Source: Flaccisagitta enflata
Taxonomy: Eukaryota
Length of the DNA: 64,000 bases
Direction: 5' to 3'
NCBI GenBank assembly: GCA_965153355.1
Contig: OZ231126.1
Location: 24,676,001-24,740,000 of the forward strand
Of this stretch, positions 3,741 to 58,278 are shown piece after piece; within the stretch, counting starts at the first letter, position 1, and each line of letters begins with the position of its first letter. The notes below the pieces were generated by a model that was given only the letters and a program-made list of their open reading frames with translations, had not been told where the DNA came from and did not search any database. The position numbers and the translations under genes are program-made.

Positions 3741-6700
3741 CTCTCTCTTTCTCTCTCTCTCTCTTTCTCATGTTAGTTTAATGAACAAGTCTGGTATATC
3801 GTCCCTGATTTTGGCCATGGTAATTAACAGTACTTTAACGCCGTTAATTAACACTATATAGGTACCAGGAAATTAACTAAGAAAAACATTTATTTATTTT
3901 TGAGAAAATTACTGAAAATAGGTGCTGAAGGTTGTTGTTAATTATCAGGTACCTATATGCTGTTAATTCACATGCTGTTTTTGATGTTAATTAACACCCC
4001 ATTTTAGGCGTTAATTAACACAAAAAAAATATAGATTATTAACAAATTGTTAAAAGTATACCATTTTTTGGTGTTAATTAACAGTTGAAATGTGGTGTTA
4101 ATTAACATAAAAAACAGCGTGTTAATTAACACAGAAAAAATATAGATTATTAAAAAATTGATATTGTACGTAAACGCTGTTAATTAACATGCTGTTTTTG
4201 ATGTTAACTAACACCGCATTTCACCTGTTAATTAACACCAAAAAATTGTATATTCTTAATATTTTGTTAATAATCTATATCATTTTGTGTTAATTAACGC
4301 ATGAAATTGGGTGTTAATTAATATAAAAAACAGCATGTTAATTAACACAGAAAAAGTATAGATTATTAACAAATTGATTTTGTACCTACACACCGTTAAT
4401 TAACATGCTGTTTGTTATGTTAATTAACACCCAATTTCATGCGTTAATTATCACAAAAAAATATAGATTATCAATAAAATATTAAGAATATACAATTTTT
4501 TGGTGTTAATTAACAAGTGAAATGCGGTGTTAGTTAACATCAAAAACAGTATGTTAATTAAGAGCGTTTAGGTATAAAATCAATTTGTTAATAATCTATA
4601 TTTTTTCTGTTTTAATTAACACGCTGTTTTTTATGTTAATTAACACCACATTTCAACTGTTAATTAACACCAAAAAATGGTATATTTTTTACAATTTGTT
4701 AATAATCTATATTTTTCTGGTGTTAATTAACGCATGAAATGTGGTGTTAATTAACATCAAAAACAACATGTAAATTAACAGTGTATAGCTACAAAATCAA
4801 TTTGTTAATGATCTATATTTTTCTGTGCTAATTAACACGCTGTTTTTTATGTTAATTAACACCACATTTCAACTGTTAATTAACACAAAAAAAAAGGGTA
4901 TACTTTTTACAATTTGTTAATAATCTATATTTTTTTGTGTTAATTAACTCATGAAATGTGGCGTTAATTAACATCAAAAACAACATGTAAATTAACAGCG
5001 TATAGCTACAAAATCAATTTGTTAATAATCTATATTTTTTTTGTGTTAATTGACATGTTGTTTTTGATGTTGATCCACATTTCACCTGTTAATTAACATC
5101 AAAAAATTGTATATTCTTAATATTTTGTTAATAATCTATATTTTTTTTGTGTTAATTAACGCATGAAATTGGGTGTTAATTACCATCAAAAACAGCATGT
5201 TAATTAACAGCGTGTAATTACAAAATCAATTTGTTAATAATCTATATTTTTGTTAATTAACACACTGTTTTTGATGTTAATTAACACCACATTTCTCCCA
5301 TTAATTAACACAAAAAAATTGAATATTTTTAACAATTTGTTAATAATCTATATTTTTTTTGGTTAATTAACAGTTGAAATGTGGTGTAAATTAACATCAA
5401 AAACAGCATGTTGATTAACAGCGTATAGGTACAAAATCAATTTGTCAATAATCTATATTTTTTTTGTGTTAATTAACCCGCTGTTTTTCATGTTAATTAA
5501 CACCACATTCCAACCGTTAATTAACACCAAAAAATGGTATATTTTTAACAATTTGTTAATAATCTATATTTTTTTTGTGTTACTTAACGCCTAAAATGGG
5601 GTGTTAATTAACATCAAAAACAGCATGTTAATTAACATCATATAGGTACCTGATAATTAACAACAACCTTCAGCACTTATTTTCAGTAATTTTCTCAAAA
5701 ATAAAAAAATGTTTTTCTTAGTTAATTTCCTGGTACCTATATAGTGTTAATTAACGACTGTTTTTTAAGTGTTAATTAACAGCAGAAAAACTACCGTTAA
5801 TTAATGGTACTTTTTTGCCTTTTATTAACAGTTTTGTTAATTAGAGGCGTTAATGTGCCGTTAATTAATGCAGGGTAAATCGCTCACGATATATCTCGAA
5901 CAAGTGGGACAGAATGCCTTAAAAAAAAAGATATCAAAACCTTAAAAGTTTAAGAATATTAGGATGAATTTTTCACAGAAAAATTGATATCATTTCTCAT
6001 ACAGGTTTTTTATAGAAAATATTTTTTCATCAAACAAAGTTTTATAGATTTTTTTGTCAAATCTTTTTCATTTCATCTTTGTTATCAAAATTCCATTTAT
6101 TTAGAAGTGATTTCACCTTTTCTTTCTGATCAGAAAGAATTTTCAATGATTTTTTTTTCATGTTTACATTAATGATTTTGATTGTCATAAATATTTTTTC
6201 ATAAACAGAATTGATGATTATATTGAGAGTGCCATTATCTTCAAAGGCAGTTAATTTGTTTTTTCAATTGTTAATTTTTGCCTGTCTTGAATTAGAATTA
6301 TTTTGTTCTTTGATTTTTTGTTGCACCAATGAACATATTACACTCAAGTAAAGAGATAAAAAAGATATTGAGAAAAAGAAAAAGAGAAAAAGGAAGAATG
6401 AATAAAAAGAAAAAAAGGAAGGGAGGAAGGGAGGAACAAAAAAGAAAAAAAACAGAAAGAAAGAAAAAAAAGGAAGAATGGAAGGAACCAAAGAAGGAAC
6501 AAAGACAAAAAGAAAAAAAAAGAAATAAAGAAAAAAAAACACAAAAAAATATAAAAAAAAAACAAAGAAAGAAAAAAAAGATCAAAAGAAAGAGAGAAAG
6601 AAAAAAAGAAGAAGGAAGGAAAGAAAAAAAGAAAAACAAAACATGAAAAGTAAAAAAGAAAGAACAATAAAATAAAAAAAAAAAGAAAAAAGAAAAAAAT

Positions 6701-7448: not shown

Positions 7449-8027
7449 TTTTTGGGCAGCGGCCCCAAAGGGCCGATGTCCTGTAGGACACAGGGGGGAA
7501 TTTCGAGACGTCCGTCCTTCCGTCCTTCCGTCCTTCCGTCCGTCCTTCCGTCCCCCCCCCTTGGCCATCGGGGGCCTAAATTTTGCTCTCTCAGGCCTGA
7601 TTTTGACCCTTTGAGCCATCAGAATAGGCTGAATAGCCCTTTCAGACCTCAATTTAGCCCTTGAGACCTTAAATCAGCTCTCCAGACCTCATATCTGCCC
7701 TCCAGACCTCAAATTAGCCCTCCATACCACCCTCCAGGCCTCGCATCAGCTCTTTAGGCCTCAAATTTGTCCTCTGGGCCTCAAGCCTGCCCCTCAAACC
7801 TCAAATCTACTCTTCAGAACCCTCCAGGCTTCAAAACCGCCTTCAATGACCTCTATCCATCTTCTCAAACCTAATATACCTCAGGACGTCTCGAAATTCC
7901 CCCCTGTGTCCTACAGGACATTGGTCCTTTGGGGCCGCTGCCCTGCTCCCTCTCCACTACTTCACTTGATCACTCCAAGCAGGGCATTGGGTACCGCTGA
8001 CCATGTGCGATCCTTGGATGACTAGTT
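7449..8027 (+). mobile_element. HINE-like family D (long internal IR, GTCC microsatellite, 21-bp tandem core)
   Basis: TTTTT-GGGCAGCGGCCCCAAAGGGCCGATGTCCTGTAGGACACAGGGG, with an inverted copy near 7893-7944, then GGTACCGCTGACCA and a terminal ATCC-TT-GGAT hairpin. Ends nearly identical to 27370-28066. Confidence 0.8.
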
Positions 8028-27369: not shown

Positions 27370-28066
27370 TTTTTGGGCAGCGGCCCCAAAGGGCCGATGT
27401 CCTGTAGGACACAGGGGTGAATTTCCTTACGTCCGTCCGTACGTACGTACGTCCGTACGTCCCCCCCCCCCTTGGAAGCTTCTCAAGCCTCTCAGGCCTC
27501 ATATCCGGCCTCTCAGGCCTCAAATCTGGCCTCTCAGGCCTCAAATCCAGCCTCTCAGGTCTCAAATCCAGCCTCTCAGGCCTTAAATCCAGCCCCTCAG
27601 GCCTCAAATCTAGCCTCTCAGGCCTCAAATCCAGCCTGTCAGGCCTCAAATCCAGCCTCTCAGGCCTTAAATCCAGCCTCTCAGGCCTCAAATCCAGCCT
27701 CTCAGGCCTCAAATCCGGCCTCTCAGGCCTCAAATCCAGCCTCTTGGGCCTCATATTCAGCCTCTTGGGCCTCAAATCCAACCTTTTGGGCCTCATTCCA
27801 GCCTCTTGGGCCTTAAATCCAGCCTCTCAGACCTCAAGTTCCCATTGAATAACAAAAATTGAAAAAAAAAAAATGCAAAATTCCCAATGAATATCACGGA
27901 AAATTACCCCAAATGTGCCCTCTCAGGACGTAAGGAAATTCACCCCTGTGTCCTACAGGACATCGGCCCTTTGGGGCCGCTGCCCTGCTCTCACTCCACT
28001 TCAGCTAATCACTCCAAGCAGGGCATCGGGTACCGCTGACCATGTGCGATCCTTGGATGACTTGTT
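27370..28066 (+). mobile_element. HINE-like family D with homogeneous 21-bp array (CTCTCAGGCCTCAAATCCAGC)
   Basis: Same ends as 7449-8027. Roughly 16 copies of a 21-bp unit at about 27482-27835. Confidence 0.85.
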
Positions 28067-35452: not shown

Positions 35453-36331
35453 TTTTTAGTCGCGGACGAGCGACTCTATAAGAGGCTTTGTCCGTCCGTC
35501 CGTCCGTCCGTCCGTCCGTCCGTCCGTCCGTCCGTCCGTCCGTCCGTCCGTCCGTCCGTCCGTCCGTCCATCCGTCCGTCCGTCCGTCCGTTGGTGAGCA
35601 CGAGTCGAAAAGTGGAATAGCAGCCCAAAGGCAGTAAGTGGTCAGCGGTACCCGTGCCCTGCTTGAGTAGTGTATGACTTAAGTTGAGGGGGAGCAGGGC
35701 AGCGGCCCCAAAGGGGACGAAGTCCTGTAGAACACAGGGGGAATCTGTCCATCCGTCCGTCCGTCCGTCCGTCCGTCCGTCCGTCCACCCATCCATTCCC
35801 CCCAGCCTCATCCTCAGGGCTTCATATCCTTTGGGGCCTATTCTGACCTAAATTCTACCACATAGCCTAAATCCAAGCAAATGGCCCAAATCTAAGCAAA
35901 ATGGCCCAAATCCAAGCAAAATGGCCCAAATCAGGTCAGAATCTTGGTACAGGGGGCCACAATATAGGTCTAAGGGGCCAAAATGATAGACCTCAGGCCA
36001 AAATTGAGGTTTTCTGGCAGGATTTGTGTCATTTTGCTTGGATTTGGGCCATTATGCTTGGATTTGAGCCATTTTGCTTAGATTTGGGCCATGTTGCTTG
36101 GATTTAGGCTATTTGGCAGAATTTAGCTCAGAATGGGCCCCAAAGGAGACGAAGCCCTGAGGATGGGGCAGGCGGGACGGACGGACGTATGTATGGACGT
36201 ACGTACGGACGGACAGATTCCCCCTGTGTTCTACAGGACTTCGTCCCCTTTGGGACGGCTGCCCAAAAACCAGCGTTTCCGCCCCTGCCCACCTGTCCGC
36301 GACTGGTATTGGCCGTGTATCCGGCCTTGTT
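35453..36331 (+). mobile_element. HINE-like family C, split by a family D insertion
   Basis: 5' AGTCGCGGACGAGCGACT + long (GTCC)n at 35458-35590. 3' GTCCGCGACT + GGCCGTGTATCCGGCC hairpin at about 36295-36331. Confidence 0.8.
35616..36269 (-). mobile_element. HINE-like family D nested inside a family C element
   Basis: IR pair near 35697-35765 and 36200-36264. The core of ~21-bp AAATGGCCCAAATCCAAGC units is present in both orientations. It interrupts 35453-36331. Confidence 0.8.
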
Positions 36332-48463: not shown

Positions 48464-49776
48464 TTTGCTAGTCATCTCTCTCGCGTGAAAATTCATCGAG
48501 ATTCATTAAAGAAGTTCCGCGTGTTCATACGACTTCGTCTTCCTACTCAACATATACGTGCGCGTGCGTGATACTCCCTCGATTTTATAACAAGATTCCT
48601 GGAGCGTAGCGCTACACGCGCGTGCGTGCATGTTAACTCTTCAAATTGACTGACTTGGGCGATGTTTTTTGCCCTTTCGCGTCATTGATCAAGTAGGCAA
48701 ACTTTTCCCCTCATCTTTTTTTTCTCCTTCGCTCGGGGCCGACTTTTGCATCGAATCCCGGTTTGATATTCGTCACGCATTTACGATTTCTTTTACGCTT
48801 TGACTGTTACAATTTCTTCTTGCATCCTTGATTCCTAAATTCATTCCTTCGTTCATGAAATCCTTCACTGGTTGCGAATTTCCGTATTTCATCTTTTCAT
48901 CCGTGACTACGCAACTGCGCATTTTTGTATCACTTCTGTGTTTTTAATCTGTCTACATCGTCGTGTGGACGAGTCATTGCATGCGCATTGAGGAAGCGCC
49001 CAGTGGCGGCGACGGCGACGGCGGCGGCGGCGGCGACGAATCGGCGGCAGGCGGCGTTGGTAGCGTCGGCAGCGTCGGCAGGCGGCGTCATAGGCGGCGT
49101 TGGCGGCAGCGGCAGCAGCGGCGCTTCTAAACTACGTCGTAAAAAACTCGTAAACGGAATCGAGGAGAAGCGAAGGAAGTGAAGTGAGGCAAGAAGAAGA
49201 AGAAGAAGAAGAAGAAGAAGAAGAAGAAGAAGAAGAAGAAGAAGAAGAAGAAGAAGAAGAAGAAGAAGAAGAAGGAGAAGAAGAGGAAGAAGAAAAAGTG
49301 GAAAAAGGAAAGATAAGGAAGGAGAATAAAAGAAAAAAGGCTTAAAACTAAAAAAAGAGTATATTTGAGGAAGAAAGAAAGGAAGTAAAAGAAAAGAAGA
49401 AGAAGAAGAAAACGAAGAGCCCGTGAGTGTTTACTGAGGAAGAAGCAAGAGAAAAGTCAATTCATCTCCATACCTCGTAAACATAGGAGGAAAATATATA
49501 CACACGGCGTCGCCGAGAGGAGAAAAAAAAATCAGCTGAGAAGCGAGGAGGAGAAATTGCCCAAGTGAGGAACAGCTTTTATGAGTGTATCGGAATTTTC
49601 TTCCGGTTGATAAAGACGTCGGAAAAAAAGGACATTTTATCGATTGAAAATAACAAAAGGAGAAATTGAAAAAAAACCCACTCACATCGCATCTACACAC
49701 GAAAATAGTGCCGACGCTGGCACTTCCGGCAATATTCATCTGAACGTCGTCAAAAACCTTTTCCTTTTTTGACAAC
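48220..49776 (+). promoter_or_regulatory. Putative CpG-rich promoter / 5' leader of the Hox gene
   Basis: CpG-rich, transposon-free block directly upstream of the ATG. It holds a tight cluster of ACTTCCGG (ETS-like, 48272-48279), TGACGTCA (CRE, 48284-48291) and CACGTG (E-box, 48295-48300), a GGC-rich stretch at 49005-49125 and a (GAA)n tract near 49191-49272. The TSS cannot be determined. Confidence 0.45.
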
Positions 49777-51301
49777 ATGAGTTCTTACTTTGTAAATTCG
49801 TTGTCCGCCGCGGCTGCTGTAGCCAATCAATGCTACGGCAACCAACAAGGGGGTATCGAAGCCCTGCAGCAGCAGCAGCAACAACATGGTTTCGGATCGC
49901 CACAACAACAGCAACAACAACAACAGCAACAACAGTCTCAGCAGCATCACGCCGCCGATCCGAACAGCATCGCGGCTGCGTTTCAAAACGCCACCAATGC
50001 CGCATCCGCTCACCAACTTCCTGGGGCCTACCACGGCTACGGCATGGCCGCCTATCAGCAACATCACCAACAACAGCAACAACAGCAACAACAACAACAA
50101 CAACAGCAACAGTTGGTGGGGAATCATAACGGCATGTCCGGAGTCAACGGCGTGGACGCGGGCTTCGGCGATCCACCTCTGAGTCCTAGTTCTTCCATGG
50201 AAAGCGCCTCACCTTCGCCAGTCTCCATGGCCACCGGAAATGGCTTCAGTGGCGATTTGTCGGCGCAAGTCGCCGCGGCAGCAGCCGCCGCGGCCGCTGC
50301 TGCAGCAGCAGCTGCCAACAACTCCGCCCCTTCCTCGTCCTCTTCCGCGTCATACTCAAAAGTCCAGATACCCCCGGTTTCGTCCATGCACTCCCAGTCG
50401 CCACAACAACAACAGCAACAGCAACATCATCATCACAGCAGCGGCAACAACGGCAACGGAAACCAAAGCCAATCCCAACAACATCATAACGGCACCGCCG
50501 GATCCCGTCACCAACAGAACTCGACTCCGCCGTTGGGTTTGCAACATAACCAACACTTGGCCGGTCTGGGGGCCGCCACTCCTCAGCCACCACCCGCTCA
50601 TCTTCACCACTCAACTCATTTGGCGCCTCCTCCTTCGCCGTCGACCGCCGGCGGAGGCGGGATGAGTCCCGGCAGCGTCGCTGGAAGATTGTCCGAACAT
50701 TTTACCGGCAGTGGTAGCGGCGGCGGCAGCGTGACTCCAACGGCTTCCTCTTCTTCCTCTTCCAATCATCTCAATCATCATAATCACAATCATCATCATC
50801 ACTCACAGCAGCAACACCAAAAATCTTCTTCATCATCTCGATCTGACGGGCCGCTGGGCGGAGGCAGTAGCGGAGCCGGCGGCGGCAACTCCTCTTCCTC
50901 TTCCTCCTCCTCGGTAGTGGCCTCTTCCTCTTCCTCATCCTCTTCCCCTTCCTCTTCCTTACATGCCTCGGGAAATTCGGCCTCTTCCTCTTCTTCCTCC
51001 TCCGCCAACAACAGTAACAACAATAACAACAACAATGCCAAAGGAACTTCCTCTTCCTCTGCCTCCTCTTCTTCGTCTCCATCTTCAAACGGCGCGTCGA
51101 CATCGAATAGCGGCGGTGGCAGCGGCGATGCGACAGCCGATTCCGCGGCCAACGCATCTCCGTCGTCGAGCGGCGGCAGCGGCAGCAGCGGCAGCAGCAG
51201 CAACGACGATGGCGACGGAGGCGAATCACCGACTCCTGCCACAACTTCCGCGCCTCAAGTCCAAATCTACCCGTGGATGCGGAAGGTTCACATGAGTCAC
51301 G
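49777..51301 (+). CDS. Hox5: Hox transcription factor, coding exon 1 (N-terminal SSYF motif to YPWM hexapeptide), most likely paralogy group 5 (Hox5/Sex combs reduced); homeobox exon not seen in window
   Basis: The ORF starts at ATG 49777 with MSSYFVNSL (Hox N-terminal SSYF motif) and ends PQVQIYPWMRKVHMSH, followed by G|GTGAGT (donor GT at 51302, phase 1). This resembles vertebrate HoxA5 (MSSYFVNS ... QIYPWMRKLHISH, intron at the equivalent position). The exon is 508 codons + 1 nt, GC/CpG-rich, with polyQ/A/S/H/N tracts. PWMRKVH alone also resembles Hox4, so the paralog call is not certain without the homeodomain. Confidence 0.88.
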
Positions 51302-51679
51302 GTGAGTTTGATGCAATAAAGTGGTTGGTCGGTTTTACTGATGAGCCGATCTGCGCGTAGCATCATGTTTAAAGAAACCAGCAACAAGCTAGGAAAAGAA
51401 CTTTAAACTGTAAAGTTAGATAGGTCAAGAATAAATTTCAAGAATGGGTATAATGTGTCCCAGGATATGAAGACAGTCAGAATACCATGGAAACCAAAAC
51501 GTACATTGCTTTAGATTTGTCGGATGGTAGATGGGTACTACACACTGTCCAAATGACCGTCAACGGGGTTATCAATTTGGTTATCTATCGGCTTTGTTGT
51601 CCGGATCATGGTCTAATTGTGTTTCAACACTGTCATTTTGCATAAAAGTGGGGAATTTCTTTGCCTACTTCCTCGTTCG

Positions 51680-57111: not shown

Positions 57112-57758
57112 CTCTTTCCTTTCTGGATCTCTCTTTTCCTCGCTTTCTGTCTCAGCACGCAGTTTCTGTCTGTCTGTCTGTCTATTTGTCTGTCTATCTG
57201 TTCGTCTCACTGTTTTCCTTTCTTTCTGACTGACTGTCTGTGTGTCTGTCTTTCTGACTTTTTGTCTGTCTGTCAGTCTGTCTGTCTTTTTGTCATTCTG
57301 CCTGTCTGTCTTTCTGTCTACTTTTTTGGCTCACTTTTTGTCTACTTGTCTGTCTGTCTGTCTGTCTGTCTTCTTCATGATTCCACGATTTCTTCTGGTA
57401 ATTATAAACAAATTATTTCTTTGTAGCCATCCAACTGCTCGTTTACAATCATCAATCTGCGACGAGGGGCGTCAGTTTTCACATCACAAGCTAAATGATC
57501 ATTGTTTGATATTTTTCAACTTTCATTGCTTCATTTCTTGCTTCGATTCTTCCGATTTTCATAGTGTATAATAGCTGTAAAAAAATCGCTGTAAAAAGAT
57601 ATCAAACATTAATTTTAAAGTTACTTCCTTCAACTCAGCCTAATTATCCCCCCCCCCCCCCCCCCCAGAAATATAAATCTTTAGATTTTATCAAACATTA
57701 TTTGTCCTGTCTTTGGCTTTAGAATCGCAAAGTGTTTTTGCAAGAGTTTCGCAGAGTT

Positions 57759-58000
57759 CACCTTGATCTGGGGGCTGAGAAAAACCCGAGATGAATCTAG
57801 CATGTTTCAATAGCTTAATTTACATGAAAAGCATACTTCTAGTTAACCCAGTGAGATAAAATTTTAACTGAAGCTCTGCAAAACCATCGGCTTTCTTCAT
57901 GTAAAATTTCATCCCACTGGGGCAACTAGAAGTATGCTTTTCATGTAATTTAAGCTATTTAGATTCATCTCGGGTTTTTCTCAGCCCCCAGATCAAGGTG
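57759..58000. mobile_element. Transib/RAG-like non-autonomous MITE with RSS-like TIRs
   Basis: TSD GAGTT at 57754-57758 and 58001-58005. Termini CACCTTG...CAAGGTG. Inverted arms of about 100 bp. Both ends read CACCTTG-ATCTGGGGGCTG-AGAAAAACC. Confidence 0.8.
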
Positions 58001-58278
58001 GAGTTGAGTGTTGGTTGACATGGTGTTGCGCAATTTTAAGATGTTAGCATCAAACAGTCACAGTTGAGAGTTGGTTTGCACGGTGATATGGTAATTTTCT
58101 CCTAACTCCGTTTCTTGCAATGGTAATAAAATGGTACGAAGGGAATAAAAACGATTTTTCATCCTTCCTGGGTCGAAGCTAGGTGAAAAATGATTTTCTT
58201 TTCCCTTAGAATTGATTTGCATTTTTGAAAAAAAAACGAAGTCTTTGAACTTGGAAGAAAAAACGGGAAGGGGCTCAA

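What the first reader, a model, noticed from the sequence alone, without database searches (positions are those of the whole stretch)
57754..58005. MITE whose ends look like V(D)J 12-RSS signals (heptamer-12-nonamer) with a 5-bp TSD: footprint of a Transib/RAG-like transposon
Seen: a 242-bp element flanked by the perfect 5-bp direct repeat GAGTT. Both ends are identical for over 35 bp and parse as CACCTTG + exactly 12 nt (ATCTGGGGGCTG) + AGAAAAACC. Established: the canonical 12-RSS is CACAGTG-12-ACAAAAACC, so the heptamer matches 5/7 including the essential CAC and the nonamer 8/9. RAG-mediated transposition and Transib elements both make 5-bp TSDs and have CAC-initial ends. Inference: this genome hosts, or recently hosted, a Transib/RAG1-like transposase that recognises symmetric 12/12 RSS-like ends with a true nonamer at vertebrate spacing. 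That would bear on how nonamer recognition and the 12/23 rule arose. The intact TSD and ends suggest a fairly recent insertion.
Basis: partly seen in the sequence, partly recalled or inferred. Interest (0 to 1): 0.85.

Follow-up and report, generated by a model that had tools for sequence, protein, structure and literature searches.

The report
Recently inserted Transib-type miniature transposon
This is a 242-base non-coding "hitch-hiker" transposon from a family with thousands of copies in a marine animal genome, newly inserted here, whose ends look like those of the transposons from which the vertebrate antibody-gene cutting system evolved, a resemblance already described for that transposon group.

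Summary
The element at 57759-58000 has 41-bp perfect inverted ends, each reading CACCTTG, then 12 nt, then AGAAAAACC, and is flanked by GAGTT on both sides.

Public contigs of the same organism include an allele that skips exactly 247 bp (242 + 5), with 5 letters fitting either side. That is an empty site. It proves a 5-bp target duplication and shows the insertion is still polymorphic.

Summed contig depth rises from about 50-100 in the flanks to 2-5 x 10^5 inside the element, so the family is very abundant.

A 5-bp duplication with CAC...GTG termini matches the published structural signature of Transib. RSS-like Transib ends, including 12-spacer ends, were described in 2005 (PMC1131882).

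The transposase was not found. No genome is held, the window holds no transposase domain, and three public collections hold no copy.

The data give no sign that the nonamer-like block is better conserved than the spacer, though the test is weak.

Verdict: a real, recently mobile MITE and most likely a new non-autonomous Transib family. The claim of "true nonamer recognition" is untested. Interest is moderate to low.

The parts
57754..57758 (.). Left copy of the 5-bp target-site duplication (GAGTT)
   Evidence: One search shows the sequence. In one search the empty-site contigs join 57753 to 58001 with 5 letters fitting both sides.
57759..57765 (+). Left terminal heptamer-like block CACCTTG (5/7 to CACAGTG; CAC and the final TG kept)
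   Evidence: The depth step and loose ends fall at this boundary.
57766..57777 (+). 12-nt 'spacer' ATCTGGGGGCTG
   Evidence: No variant at a share of 5% or more is listed here.
57778..57786 (+). A-rich nonamer-like block AGAAAAACC (8/9 to ACAAAAACC; 7/9 to the published Transib consensus AAAAAAATC)
   Evidence: The consensus sequences are quoted in PMC1131882.
57759..57799 (+). Left terminal inverted repeat, 41 bp, perfect in this copy
   Evidence: pair I2.
57800..57959 (.). Internal non-coding part. It is itself a long imperfect inverted repeat (65-nt arms, 89%) around a centre (about 57873-57903) that differs between subfamilies.
   Evidence: pair I1; the element matches its own reverse complement at 80.9% over 257 columns; folds at -99.3 kcal/mol, z = -24.5; loose ends at 57870/57873 and 57903/57904; the longest frame is 44 aa.
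57960..58000 (-). Right terminal inverted repeat, 41 bp. On the minus strand: heptamer 58000-57994, spacer 57993-57982, nonamer-like block 57981-57973.
   Evidence: In one search almost all other copies read G, not T, at 57960, so the family's perfect repeat is 40 bp.
58001..58005 (.). Right copy of the 5-bp target-site duplication (GAGTT)

Best explanation
The element is one copy of a very abundant family of miniature, non-coding, foldback DNA transposons (a MITE). It inserted here recently and is still polymorphic.

By structure it belongs to the Transib superfamily. A RAG1-core-like DDE transposase, encoded by an autonomous element elsewhere in the genome, would bind the two identical 41-bp ends. 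It would cut at the outer edge of the CAC, excise the element, and insert it with a 5-bp stagger, which gives the GAGTT duplication. For characterised Transib and RAG enzymes the cut proceeds by nick and hairpin on the flanking DNA.

The heptamer, 12-nt spacer and A-rich 9-mer layout is most simply the RSS-like end architecture already described for Transib. It appears on both ends (12/12) because the whole element is a near-palindrome built from one kind of end.

Shown here: insertion, exact boundaries, 5-bp duplication, abundance, polymorphism and sequence likeness. Inferred: the superfamily, the enzyme, the cleavage chemistry, and any role for the 9-mer.
For: Structure: 41-bp perfect inverted repeats with CAC...GTG ends, flanked by GAGTT on each side.

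Empty site: contigs skipping exactly 247 bp, with 5 ambiguous letters, occur in X1 (1 contig, depth 51.3), X2 (2 contigs, 21.2 + 32.7 = 53.9) and X5 (1 contig, 2.3).

Polymorphism:
- In X1 the occupied junction contig (record 1, depth 48.3) and the empty contig (51.3) share the flank depth of about 100. This fits a heterozygote.
- In X2 the two empty contigs account for the whole flank depth.

Abundance:
- 1599, 1301, 265 and 89 contigs were laid in X1, X2, X3 and X5.
- Summed depth inside the element is 2.9-5.5e5 in X1 and 1.9-4.6e5 in X2, against about 50-115 in the flanks.
- The depth steps sit in the bins holding 57759 and 58000.

Literature (passages read):
- Transib is characterised by 5-bp duplications. 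It has a consensus end of CACAATG, a 23-nt spacer and AAAAAAATC. Several families have an RSS12-like 5' end, and non-autonomous families are known (PMC1131882).
- The EnSpm/Mirage/Chapaev/Transib group shares CA..TG termini with 2-5 bp duplications (PMC12730594).
- The insect Hztransib transposase transposes a 12/12 RSS substrate but hardly a 23/23 one (PMC4840297).

Chance: a match of 8/9 at spacing 12 has probability 1.6e-4 per site. It is seen at only these 2 of 1442 CAC sites.

One variant end seen as a loose end in X3 keeps CAC, the 12-nt spacing and an A-rich 9-mer (8/9) while differing at 3 of 28 positions.
Against: - No autonomous partner or transposase was found, so superfamily membership rests on end structure alone.
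- Only one target duplication could be read. GAGTT is 2/5 G+C, whereas Transib and RAG targets are described as GC-rich.
- hAT5 elements also make 5-bp duplications.
- No differential conservation of the 9-mer over the spacer was seen. One search lists 15 variable positions in the element, all between 57796 and 57960. None lies in the outer 37 nt on the left or 40 nt on the right. The invariant block therefore covers heptamer, spacer, 9-mer and about 10 more bases alike.
- That pile-up may under-report variation near contig ends, and 3 rows were not shown.
- Hztransib's own ends have little or no nonamer likeness.
- Across a scan of many windows, a 1-in-1000 coincidence will turn up by chance.
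Confidence: 0.7

Rival explanations
1. It is a MITE of a different or undescribed cut-and-paste superfamily that also makes 5-bp duplications. Candidates are hAT5, an unusual CACTA/Chapaev-type relative, or an unclassified family. The likeness of the 9-mer to the RSS nonamer would then be coincidence.
For: - hAT families with 5-bp duplications exist (PMC12730594).
- The CACTA/Mirage/Chapaev relatives share CA..TG termini.
- No transposase was linked to the element.
- The target GAGTT is not GC-rich.
- The spacer is as invariant as the 9-mer.
Against: - In 22 hAT families the third terminal base is always G, as stated in the Fig. S7 legend of PMC1131882. Here it is C.
- Within the CACTA/Transib group, the 5-bp end of the quoted 2-5 bp range is the Transib value.
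- The 8/9 match at exactly 12 has a chance of about 1.6e-4 per site and spacing.
Confidence: 0.2
2. It is a non-autonomous derivative of a RAG-like (RAG1L + RAG2L) transposon rather than of a plain Transib.
For: RAGL transposons also have CAC heptamers and 5-bp duplications. Non-autonomous RAGL elements and, in a hemichordate, AT-rich nonamer-like blocks have been reported (PMC7204232; PMC10629977).
Against: - Described RAGL ends carry a conserved block that begins adenine-rich directly after the heptamer (TR2). Here that position reads ATCTGGGGGC.
- The Fig. 3 legend of PMC7204232 groups Arthropoda with phyla in which no RAG-like sequences were found. The window looks like an arthropod-type Hox locus, but that is a lead only.
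- RAGL elements are reported in few copies, not thousands. This last point is my inference from those passages.
Confidence: 0.05
3. It is not a mobile element. It would then be a chance palindrome, a local duplication or an assembly artefact.
For: Only one copy lies in the 64-kb window.
Against: - Precise empty-site contigs occur in three independent runs.
- Over a thousand contigs match the element in each of two runs.
- Depth steps sit at the exact ends (all).
Confidence: 0.01

Closest known systems
Non-autonomous Transib families of insects (TransibN1-N3_AG, TransibN1_DM/DP) and Transib5 / Transib2_AG, as described in PMC1131882
   Same: - 5-bp target duplication.
- CAC-initial heptamer-like terminus.
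- An A-rich 9-mer further in, placed at RSS12-like spacing on the 5' end of five named families.
- No coding capacity in the N families.
   Different: - Those families are described as 12-like on one end and 23-like on the other, or symmetric at about 20-23. This element is 12/12 and is a near-complete foldback.
- Its terminal sequence could not be compared with theirs, because figures and Repbase are not held.
Hztransib of Helicoverpa zea, the biochemically characterised Transib
   Same: It makes invariable 5-bp duplications, depends on the CAC, and can transpose an artificial 12/12 RSS pair (PMC4840297). This makes a natural 12/12 substrate plausible.
   Different: Hztransib's own ends have little or no likeness to the nonamer, and its transposase lacks most of the nonamer-binding region. 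It is an autonomous element.
Vertebrate 12-RSS
   Same: CAC at heptamer positions 1-3, A at nonamer positions 5 and 6, a 12-nt spacer, and 5/7 plus 8/9 identity to consensus.
   Different: - It is a transposon end, not a signal beside an antigen-receptor segment.
- Both ends are 12, which the 12/23 rule disfavours for RAG.
- The spacer sequence is as fixed as the two blocks within the family.
PflRAGL-A and ProtoRAG (RAGL) terminal repeats
   Same: Heptamer-like end and 5-bp duplications. PflRAGL-A also has an AT-rich nonamer-like block.
   Different: Those ends carry a TR2 block next to the heptamer and have asymmetric spacers. No TR2-like adenine-rich start is seen here.
hAT5 elements
   Same: 5-bp target duplication.
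   Different: hAT termini have G at position 3 and no second conserved block (Fig. S7 legend). This element has C at position 3 and 41-bp repeats.

Membership tests
MITE (miniature non-autonomous TIR transposon) | Short and without coding capacity | tested here: met
   The element is 242 bp. The longest stop-to-stop frame touching it is 44 aa.
MITE (miniature non-autonomous TIR transposon) | Terminal inverted repeats and a target-site duplication shown to arise on insertion | tested here: met
   41-bp perfect repeats. Filled and empty alleles differ by 242 + 5 bp.
MITE (miniature non-autonomous TIR transposon) | Many copies in the genome | tested here: met
   1599 and 1301 matching contigs in X1 and X2. 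Summed depth is thousands of times that of the flanks. The tool warns that this is not a copy number.
Transib superfamily | 5-bp target-site duplication | tested here: met
   for this one copy only. Other copies' duplications could not be read.
Transib superfamily | Termini 5'-CAC...GTG-3' with a heptamer-like CACxxTG | tested here: met
   The end reads CACCTTG. The consensus CACAATG is quoted.
Transib superfamily | A second, A-rich conserved block (nonamer-like) within the roughly 38-bp end | tested here: met
   AGAAAAACC lies at spacing 12. Most families have it at 23, and five have an RSS12-like 5' end.
Transib superfamily | Autonomous relative with the same ends encoding a RAG1-core-like DDE transposase | not testable with these tools
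   No genome is held. 0 of 149 window ORFs carries a transposase domain. No copy lies in the three collections.
Transib superfamily | Preference for GC-rich targets | tested here: inconclusive
   Only one site could be read. GAGTT is 2 of 5 G+C.
Transib superfamily | Repbase rule for non-autonomous elements: same duplication length and terminal positions 1-11 aligning with at most 1 mismatch to a classified family (PMC4455052) | not testable with these tools
   No Repbase library is held. The figures of PMC1131882 are not held.
Functional 12-RSS | CAC at heptamer 1-3, A at nonamer 5-6, spacer of 12 +/- 1 | tested here: met
   The critical positions are as quoted.
Functional 12-RSS | Heptamer and nonamer conserved while the spacer sequence varies | tested here: not met
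   No position of the outer 37-40 nt varies at a share of 5% or more. The one variant end has 1 change each in heptamer, spacer and 9-mer. This is a weak test on a single young family.
Functional 12-RSS | Cleaved by RAG1/RAG2 and paired by the 12/23 rule | not testable with these tools
   This needs biochemistry. Both ends are 12.
hAT5 | Third terminal base G | tested here: not met
   The end reads CAC. The rule comes from the Fig. S7 legend of PMC1131882.
RAGL (RAG1L-RAG2L) transposons | TR2: a conserved 9-10 bp block with an adenine-rich start next to the heptamer | tested here: not met
   ATCTGGGGGC follows the heptamer. The TR2 description is quoted. The comparison is by description only, with no alignment.

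The most novel reading that the evidence does not exclude
The family is driven by a currently active Transib-type transposase that carries a GRPR/K-type nonamer-binding domain. This enzyme truly reads the A-rich 9-mer at 12 bp on both ends. That would be a natural, high-activity 12/12 'heptamer-spacer-nonamer' system in a marine invertebrate that has no RAG2. It would be a living model for nonamer recognition before the 12/23 rule.
Probability: 0.2. Interest if true: 0.6.

Novelty: new member of a known kind. Interest (0 to 1): 0.35.

Why it matters
RSS-like Transib ends are textbook evidence that V(D)J recombination came from a transposon, so one more family adds little by itself.

Three things are useful here:
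- The family is clearly active or very recently active. This insertion is present on one haplotype and absent from others.
- The family is very abundant.
- Both ends carry an unusually good nonamer match at 12 bp.

If the partner transposase can be recovered from the organism's assembly, the pair would be a convenient natural system. It could be used to ask whether a RAG2-less Transib enzyme uses the nonamer and how it treats spacer length. This complements the finding that Hztransib accepts artificial 12/12 RSS pairs (PMC4840297).

The copy also appears to lie in the intron of a Hox gene. That makes it a handy presence/absence marker, though nothing suggests an effect on the gene.

Tried and rejected
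- **Whole-genome search.** Not possible, because no genome is held for this window.
- **Other copies in the window.** BLAST of the element against the window found only itself and its own reverse complement. All other hits were 17 nt or shorter.
- **Viral contigs.** Exact scans with a 19-mer of the end and a 25-mer gave 0 matches.
- **Metagenome contigs.** A degenerate 19-mer gave 17 loci. In 0 of 17 does the match continue into the 9-mer or the rest of the repeat. All are GC-rich chance matches.
- **Prokaryote genome contigs.** 0 matches.
- **Pfam scans.** I first scanned 14 long frames. I then scanned 149 of the 300 stop-to-stop frames of 70 aa or more, namely those with residue entropy of at least 3.6; the other 151, mostly repeat-encoded, were left out. 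No transposase, RAG1 or other informative domain turned up. There were only sub-threshold low-complexity hits.
- **Rfam and tRNA scans.** Nothing found.
- **Earlier notes of this scan.** Nothing on this genome. The one sequence look-alike is an unrelated bacterial island.
- **Full-text search for the terminal 13-mer.** Two unrelated papers, seen as listings only, which I take to be primers.
- **Literature search for 'Transib + MITE + crustacean'.** 12 papers, listings only. None is about such a family, judging by title.
- **Homologue search with the N-terminal 49 residues of the Hox-like exon.** 95 candidates, none at E <= 0.01. The organism's taxon therefore stays an inference.
- **Searching the protein collections with translated MITE frames.** Considered and dropped. 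The frames are 44 aa or shorter, and only about 20 aa of each lies inside the element, too short for a significant hit.
- **Run coverage.** Parts without cover in X3 (bins 57692-57735) are not interpreted.

Full report
**What is in the sequence**

The window reads GAGTT at 57754-57758, then a 242-bp element at 57759-58000, then GAGTT again at 58001-58005. The outer 41 bp of the element (57759-57799 and 57960-58000) are perfect inverted repeats (pair I2).

A second pair of 65-nt arms, 89% complementary, lies inside them (I1). The whole element aligns to its own reverse complement at 80.9% over 257 columns. As single-stranded DNA it folds into one long hairpin of -99.3 kcal/mol. None of 200 shuffles folds as well, and z = -24.5.

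Each end parses as CACCTTG, then ATCTGGGGGCTG (12 nt), then AGAAAAACC. Against the RSS consensus CACAGTG / ACAAAAACC quoted in PMC1131882 this is 5/7 and 8/9. The positions that paper calls essential are kept: heptamer 1-3 and nonamer 5-6.

**Is it more than chance?**

- The 28-mer occurs only at the two ends. It occurs in none of 100 shuffles of the window.
- Among 139 CAC...GTG pairs in the window with at least 12 of 14 complementary terminal bases, this is the only one with a 5-bp direct repeat.
- Among 1442 CAC sites on both strands, only these two have a 9-mer matching the nonamer at 8/9 or better at spacing 12. At spacings 11, 13, 22, 23 and 24 the counts are 0, 0, 2, 0 and 3.
- By base composition the chance is 1.6e-4 per site and spacing.

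For one CAC-ended element, allowing six spacings, that is about 1 in 1000. It is small, but such coincidences are expected somewhere in a scan of very many windows. Statistics alone cannot show that the 9-mer is meaningful.

**Proof of transposition**

The window comes from a eukaryote with very many simple repeats (161 tandem-repeat rows). It has no tRNA or Rfam hits, and no genome is held for it.

A 9-kb stretch around the element is held by two runs of a coded 'organism A' (X1 with 0.71 of the sampled words, X2 with 0.47). It is held in smaller part by 13 marine or seawater metagenome runs. I laid the contigs of X1, X2, X3 and X5 on 57560-58200 at 80% likeness. Three results matter.

*First, an empty site.* Contigs join 57753 directly to 58001. 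They skip 247 bases (242 + 5), and 5 letters fit either side. They occur in X1 (1 contig, depth 51.3), X2 (2 contigs, 21.2 + 32.7) and X5 (1 contig, 2.3). None is listed for X3.
- X2 record 9 and X5 record 24 each carry both flanks on one contig.
- This is the unoccupied allele with a single GAGTT. It fixes the element's boundaries and the 5-bp duplication.

*Second, the insertion is polymorphic.*
- In X1 the contig running from the left flank into the element (record 1, depth 48.3) and the empty contig (51.3) split a flank depth of about 100. This is what a heterozygote would give.
- In X2 the two empty contigs make up all of the flank depth (53.9).
- The empty haplotype also differs at many flank positions (14 other letters in 192 bases, X1 record 2). 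It is a distinct haplotype, not an excision scar.

*Third, abundance.*
- 1599, 1301, 265 and 89 contigs were laid in X1, X2, X3 and X5.
- Summed contig depth rises from about 50-115 in the flanks to 2.9-5.5e5 (X1) and 1.9-4.6e5 (X2) inside the element.
- The steps fall in the bins that hold 57759 and 58000. Loose ends of unrelated sequence begin at 57757 and 58000.
- The tool warns that summed depth is not a copy number, so I say only that the family has on the order of thousands of copies.

**Conservation along the end**

One search lists 15 positions inside the element where another letter reaches a 5% share. All lie between 57796 and 57960. None lies in the outer 37 nt on the left or the outer 40 nt on the right.

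At the internal density of 15 in 165, about 7 would be expected in those 77 bases. The ends as a whole therefore look more constant than the interior. Within them the heptamer, the 12-nt spacer, the 9-mer and about 10 further bases are equally invariant.

The one diverged end that the output shows is a loose end in X3, lying before 57808. It reads CACCTAG, ATCTAGGGGCTG, AAAAAAACC. That is one change in each of the three parts, with the 12-nt spacing and an 8/9 nonamer match kept. In that contig the 9-mer joins directly to 57808, so the 21 bases after it are missing.

This is weak support that the outer 28 bp form the shared unit. It gives no support for a variable spacer between two conserved blocks.

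Caveats:
- Contigs break at repeat ends.
- Differences near contig ends are filtered or clipped.
- 3 rows of differences and 358 loose ends were not shown.
- A single young family says little about constraint.

**Which superfamily?**

From passages I read:
- Transib is described as the superfamily with 5-bp duplications. Its consensus end is CACAATG, a 23-nt spacer and AAAAAAATC. Five families (Transib5, Transib2_AG, TransibN1-N3_AG) have 5' ends like RSS12 and 3' ends like RSS23. Non-autonomous families exist, and targets tend to be GC-rich (PMC1131882; restated in PMC8355894).
- The EnSpm/Mirage/Chapaev/Transib group shares CA..TG termini and makes 2-5 bp duplications. hAT5 elements also make 5-bp duplications (PMC12730594).
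- hAT termini always have G at the third base and lack a second conserved block (Fig. S7 legend of PMC1131882). The element here has C at the third base.
- Repbase classifies non-autonomous elements by duplication length and terminal sequence (PMC4455052).

On these structural criteria the element fits Transib and fails hAT.

RAG-like (RAG1L-RAG2L) transposons share the heptamer and the 5-bp duplication. Their ends, however, carry a TR2 block with an adenine-rich start next to the heptamer (PMC10629977). That block is not seen here.

**The missing piece**

I could not find the transposase.
- The window has no other copy.
- No transposase domain appeared in the 149 of 300 frames of 70 aa or more that I scanned, nor in 14 long frames.
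- Exact scans with parts of the end found nothing in viral contigs or prokaryote genome contigs.
- The metagenome scan gave 17 loci, none of which continues into the element.

Superfamily membership and all mechanism beyond cut-and-paste with a 5-bp stagger are therefore inferred.

**How it most likely works**

A RAG1-core-like DDE transposase from an autonomous Transib elsewhere in the genome would bind the two identical ends. It would cleave at the CAC boundary, by nick and hairpin on the flanks as reported for Hztransib and RAG (cited in PMC10629977, and PMC4840297). It would then insert the blunt-ended element with a 5-bp stagger.

The 12/12 symmetry need not reflect a rule of the enzyme. 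The element is a foldback, so both ends are copies of one end. A parent with 12/23 ends could give rise to it.

This is compatible with what is known. Hztransib transposes an artificial 12/12 RSS pair without RAG2 but hardly a 23/23 pair. [quoted passage not shown] GRPR/K-type nonamer-binding domains are said to occur in some Transib transposases (PMC10629977).

Whether the 9-mer here is contacted is open. I put it at roughly one in three.

**Context**

The long frame at 49744-51360 (+) starts, after an ATG at 49777, with MSSYFVNSL. It ends with QIYPWMRKVH (hexapeptide at 51268).
- The protein atlas's nearest named clusters are Hox proteins, but all score under 0.9, so this is a lead only.
- From memory, not tested, these motifs are those of Hox4/5-class (Dfd/Scr-type) genes. 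The long glutamine, serine and alanine runs are common in arthropod Hox proteins.
- No homeobox motif is in the window.

The element, 6.4 kb downstream on the same strand, therefore probably lies in the intron before the homeobox exon. This is an inference.

If the host is an arthropod, a plain Transib is the likelier partner. The Fig. 3 legend of PMC7204232 groups Arthropoda among phyla without RAG-like sequences.

**Verdict**

This is a real, abundant MITE, inserted recently enough to be polymorphic, with a proven 5-bp duplication.

Transib is the best structural fit (about 0.7). No transposase was seen, and nonamer recognition is untested. The general point, that Transib ends look like RSSs including 12-spacer ends, has been in print since 2005.

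I file it as a new member of a known kind, with a symmetric 12/12 foldback layout as its only unusual trait.

I saw only passages of the papers named. The figures and supplementary figures of PMC1131882, which show the actual end alignments, are not held. A direct comparison with known families therefore remains to be done.

Noticed in passing
window 49744-51360 (+), ATG at 49777, hexapeptide at 51268: A long exon-like frame starts MSSYFVNSL and ends QIYPWMRKVH, with long Q, A, S, H and N runs. It is probably the first coding exon of a Hox gene. No homeobox motif lies in the window, so the MITE probably sits in this gene's intron.
   Followed up: partly
window about 7454-7943, 27375-27985 and 35697-36264 (the third is inverted): Three copies of another inverted-repeat element. 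Its roughly 50-bp ends start GGGCAGCGGCCCCAAAGGG. Inside it carries a (GTCC)n microsatellite and a roughly 21-bp minisatellite, so the interior varies in length. Its boundaries and target duplication were not worked out.
   Followed up: partly
window 3961-5649: A tandem array of a 216-bp unit, 7.8 copies at 81% matches, full of TTAATTAACAC motifs. It produces many short inverted pairs flanked by TTAA.
   Followed up: no
whole window: Extreme density of simple repeats. There are 161 tandem-repeat rows in 64 kb, including (AAC)n, (ACA)n, (AG)n and (GTCC)n runs of 300-650 bp. These create most of the long open frames.
   Followed up: no
loose ends before 57757 in X3 and X5: The sequences lying just outside the left end in two marine metagenome runs resemble each other. 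Both are A-rich and end in ..CAC followed by TT. This hints that in some genomes the element is nested in, or part of, a larger repeat. It could not be followed up, because only 30 letters are shown and the tool's single call was used.
   Followed up: no
window 57960 and 57858: This copy differs from nearly all other copies at two positions. At 57960 it has T where more than 99% of depth reads G. At 57858 it has A where about 97% of depth reads G. The T at 57960 is what extends its perfect inverted repeat from 40 to 41 bp.
   Followed up: yes
window 58002-58025 and 58062-58085: The target region just right of the insertion contains a 24-nt direct repeat at 83% identity, spaced 60 bp apart (D1). 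It overlaps the right GAGTT.
   Followed up: no
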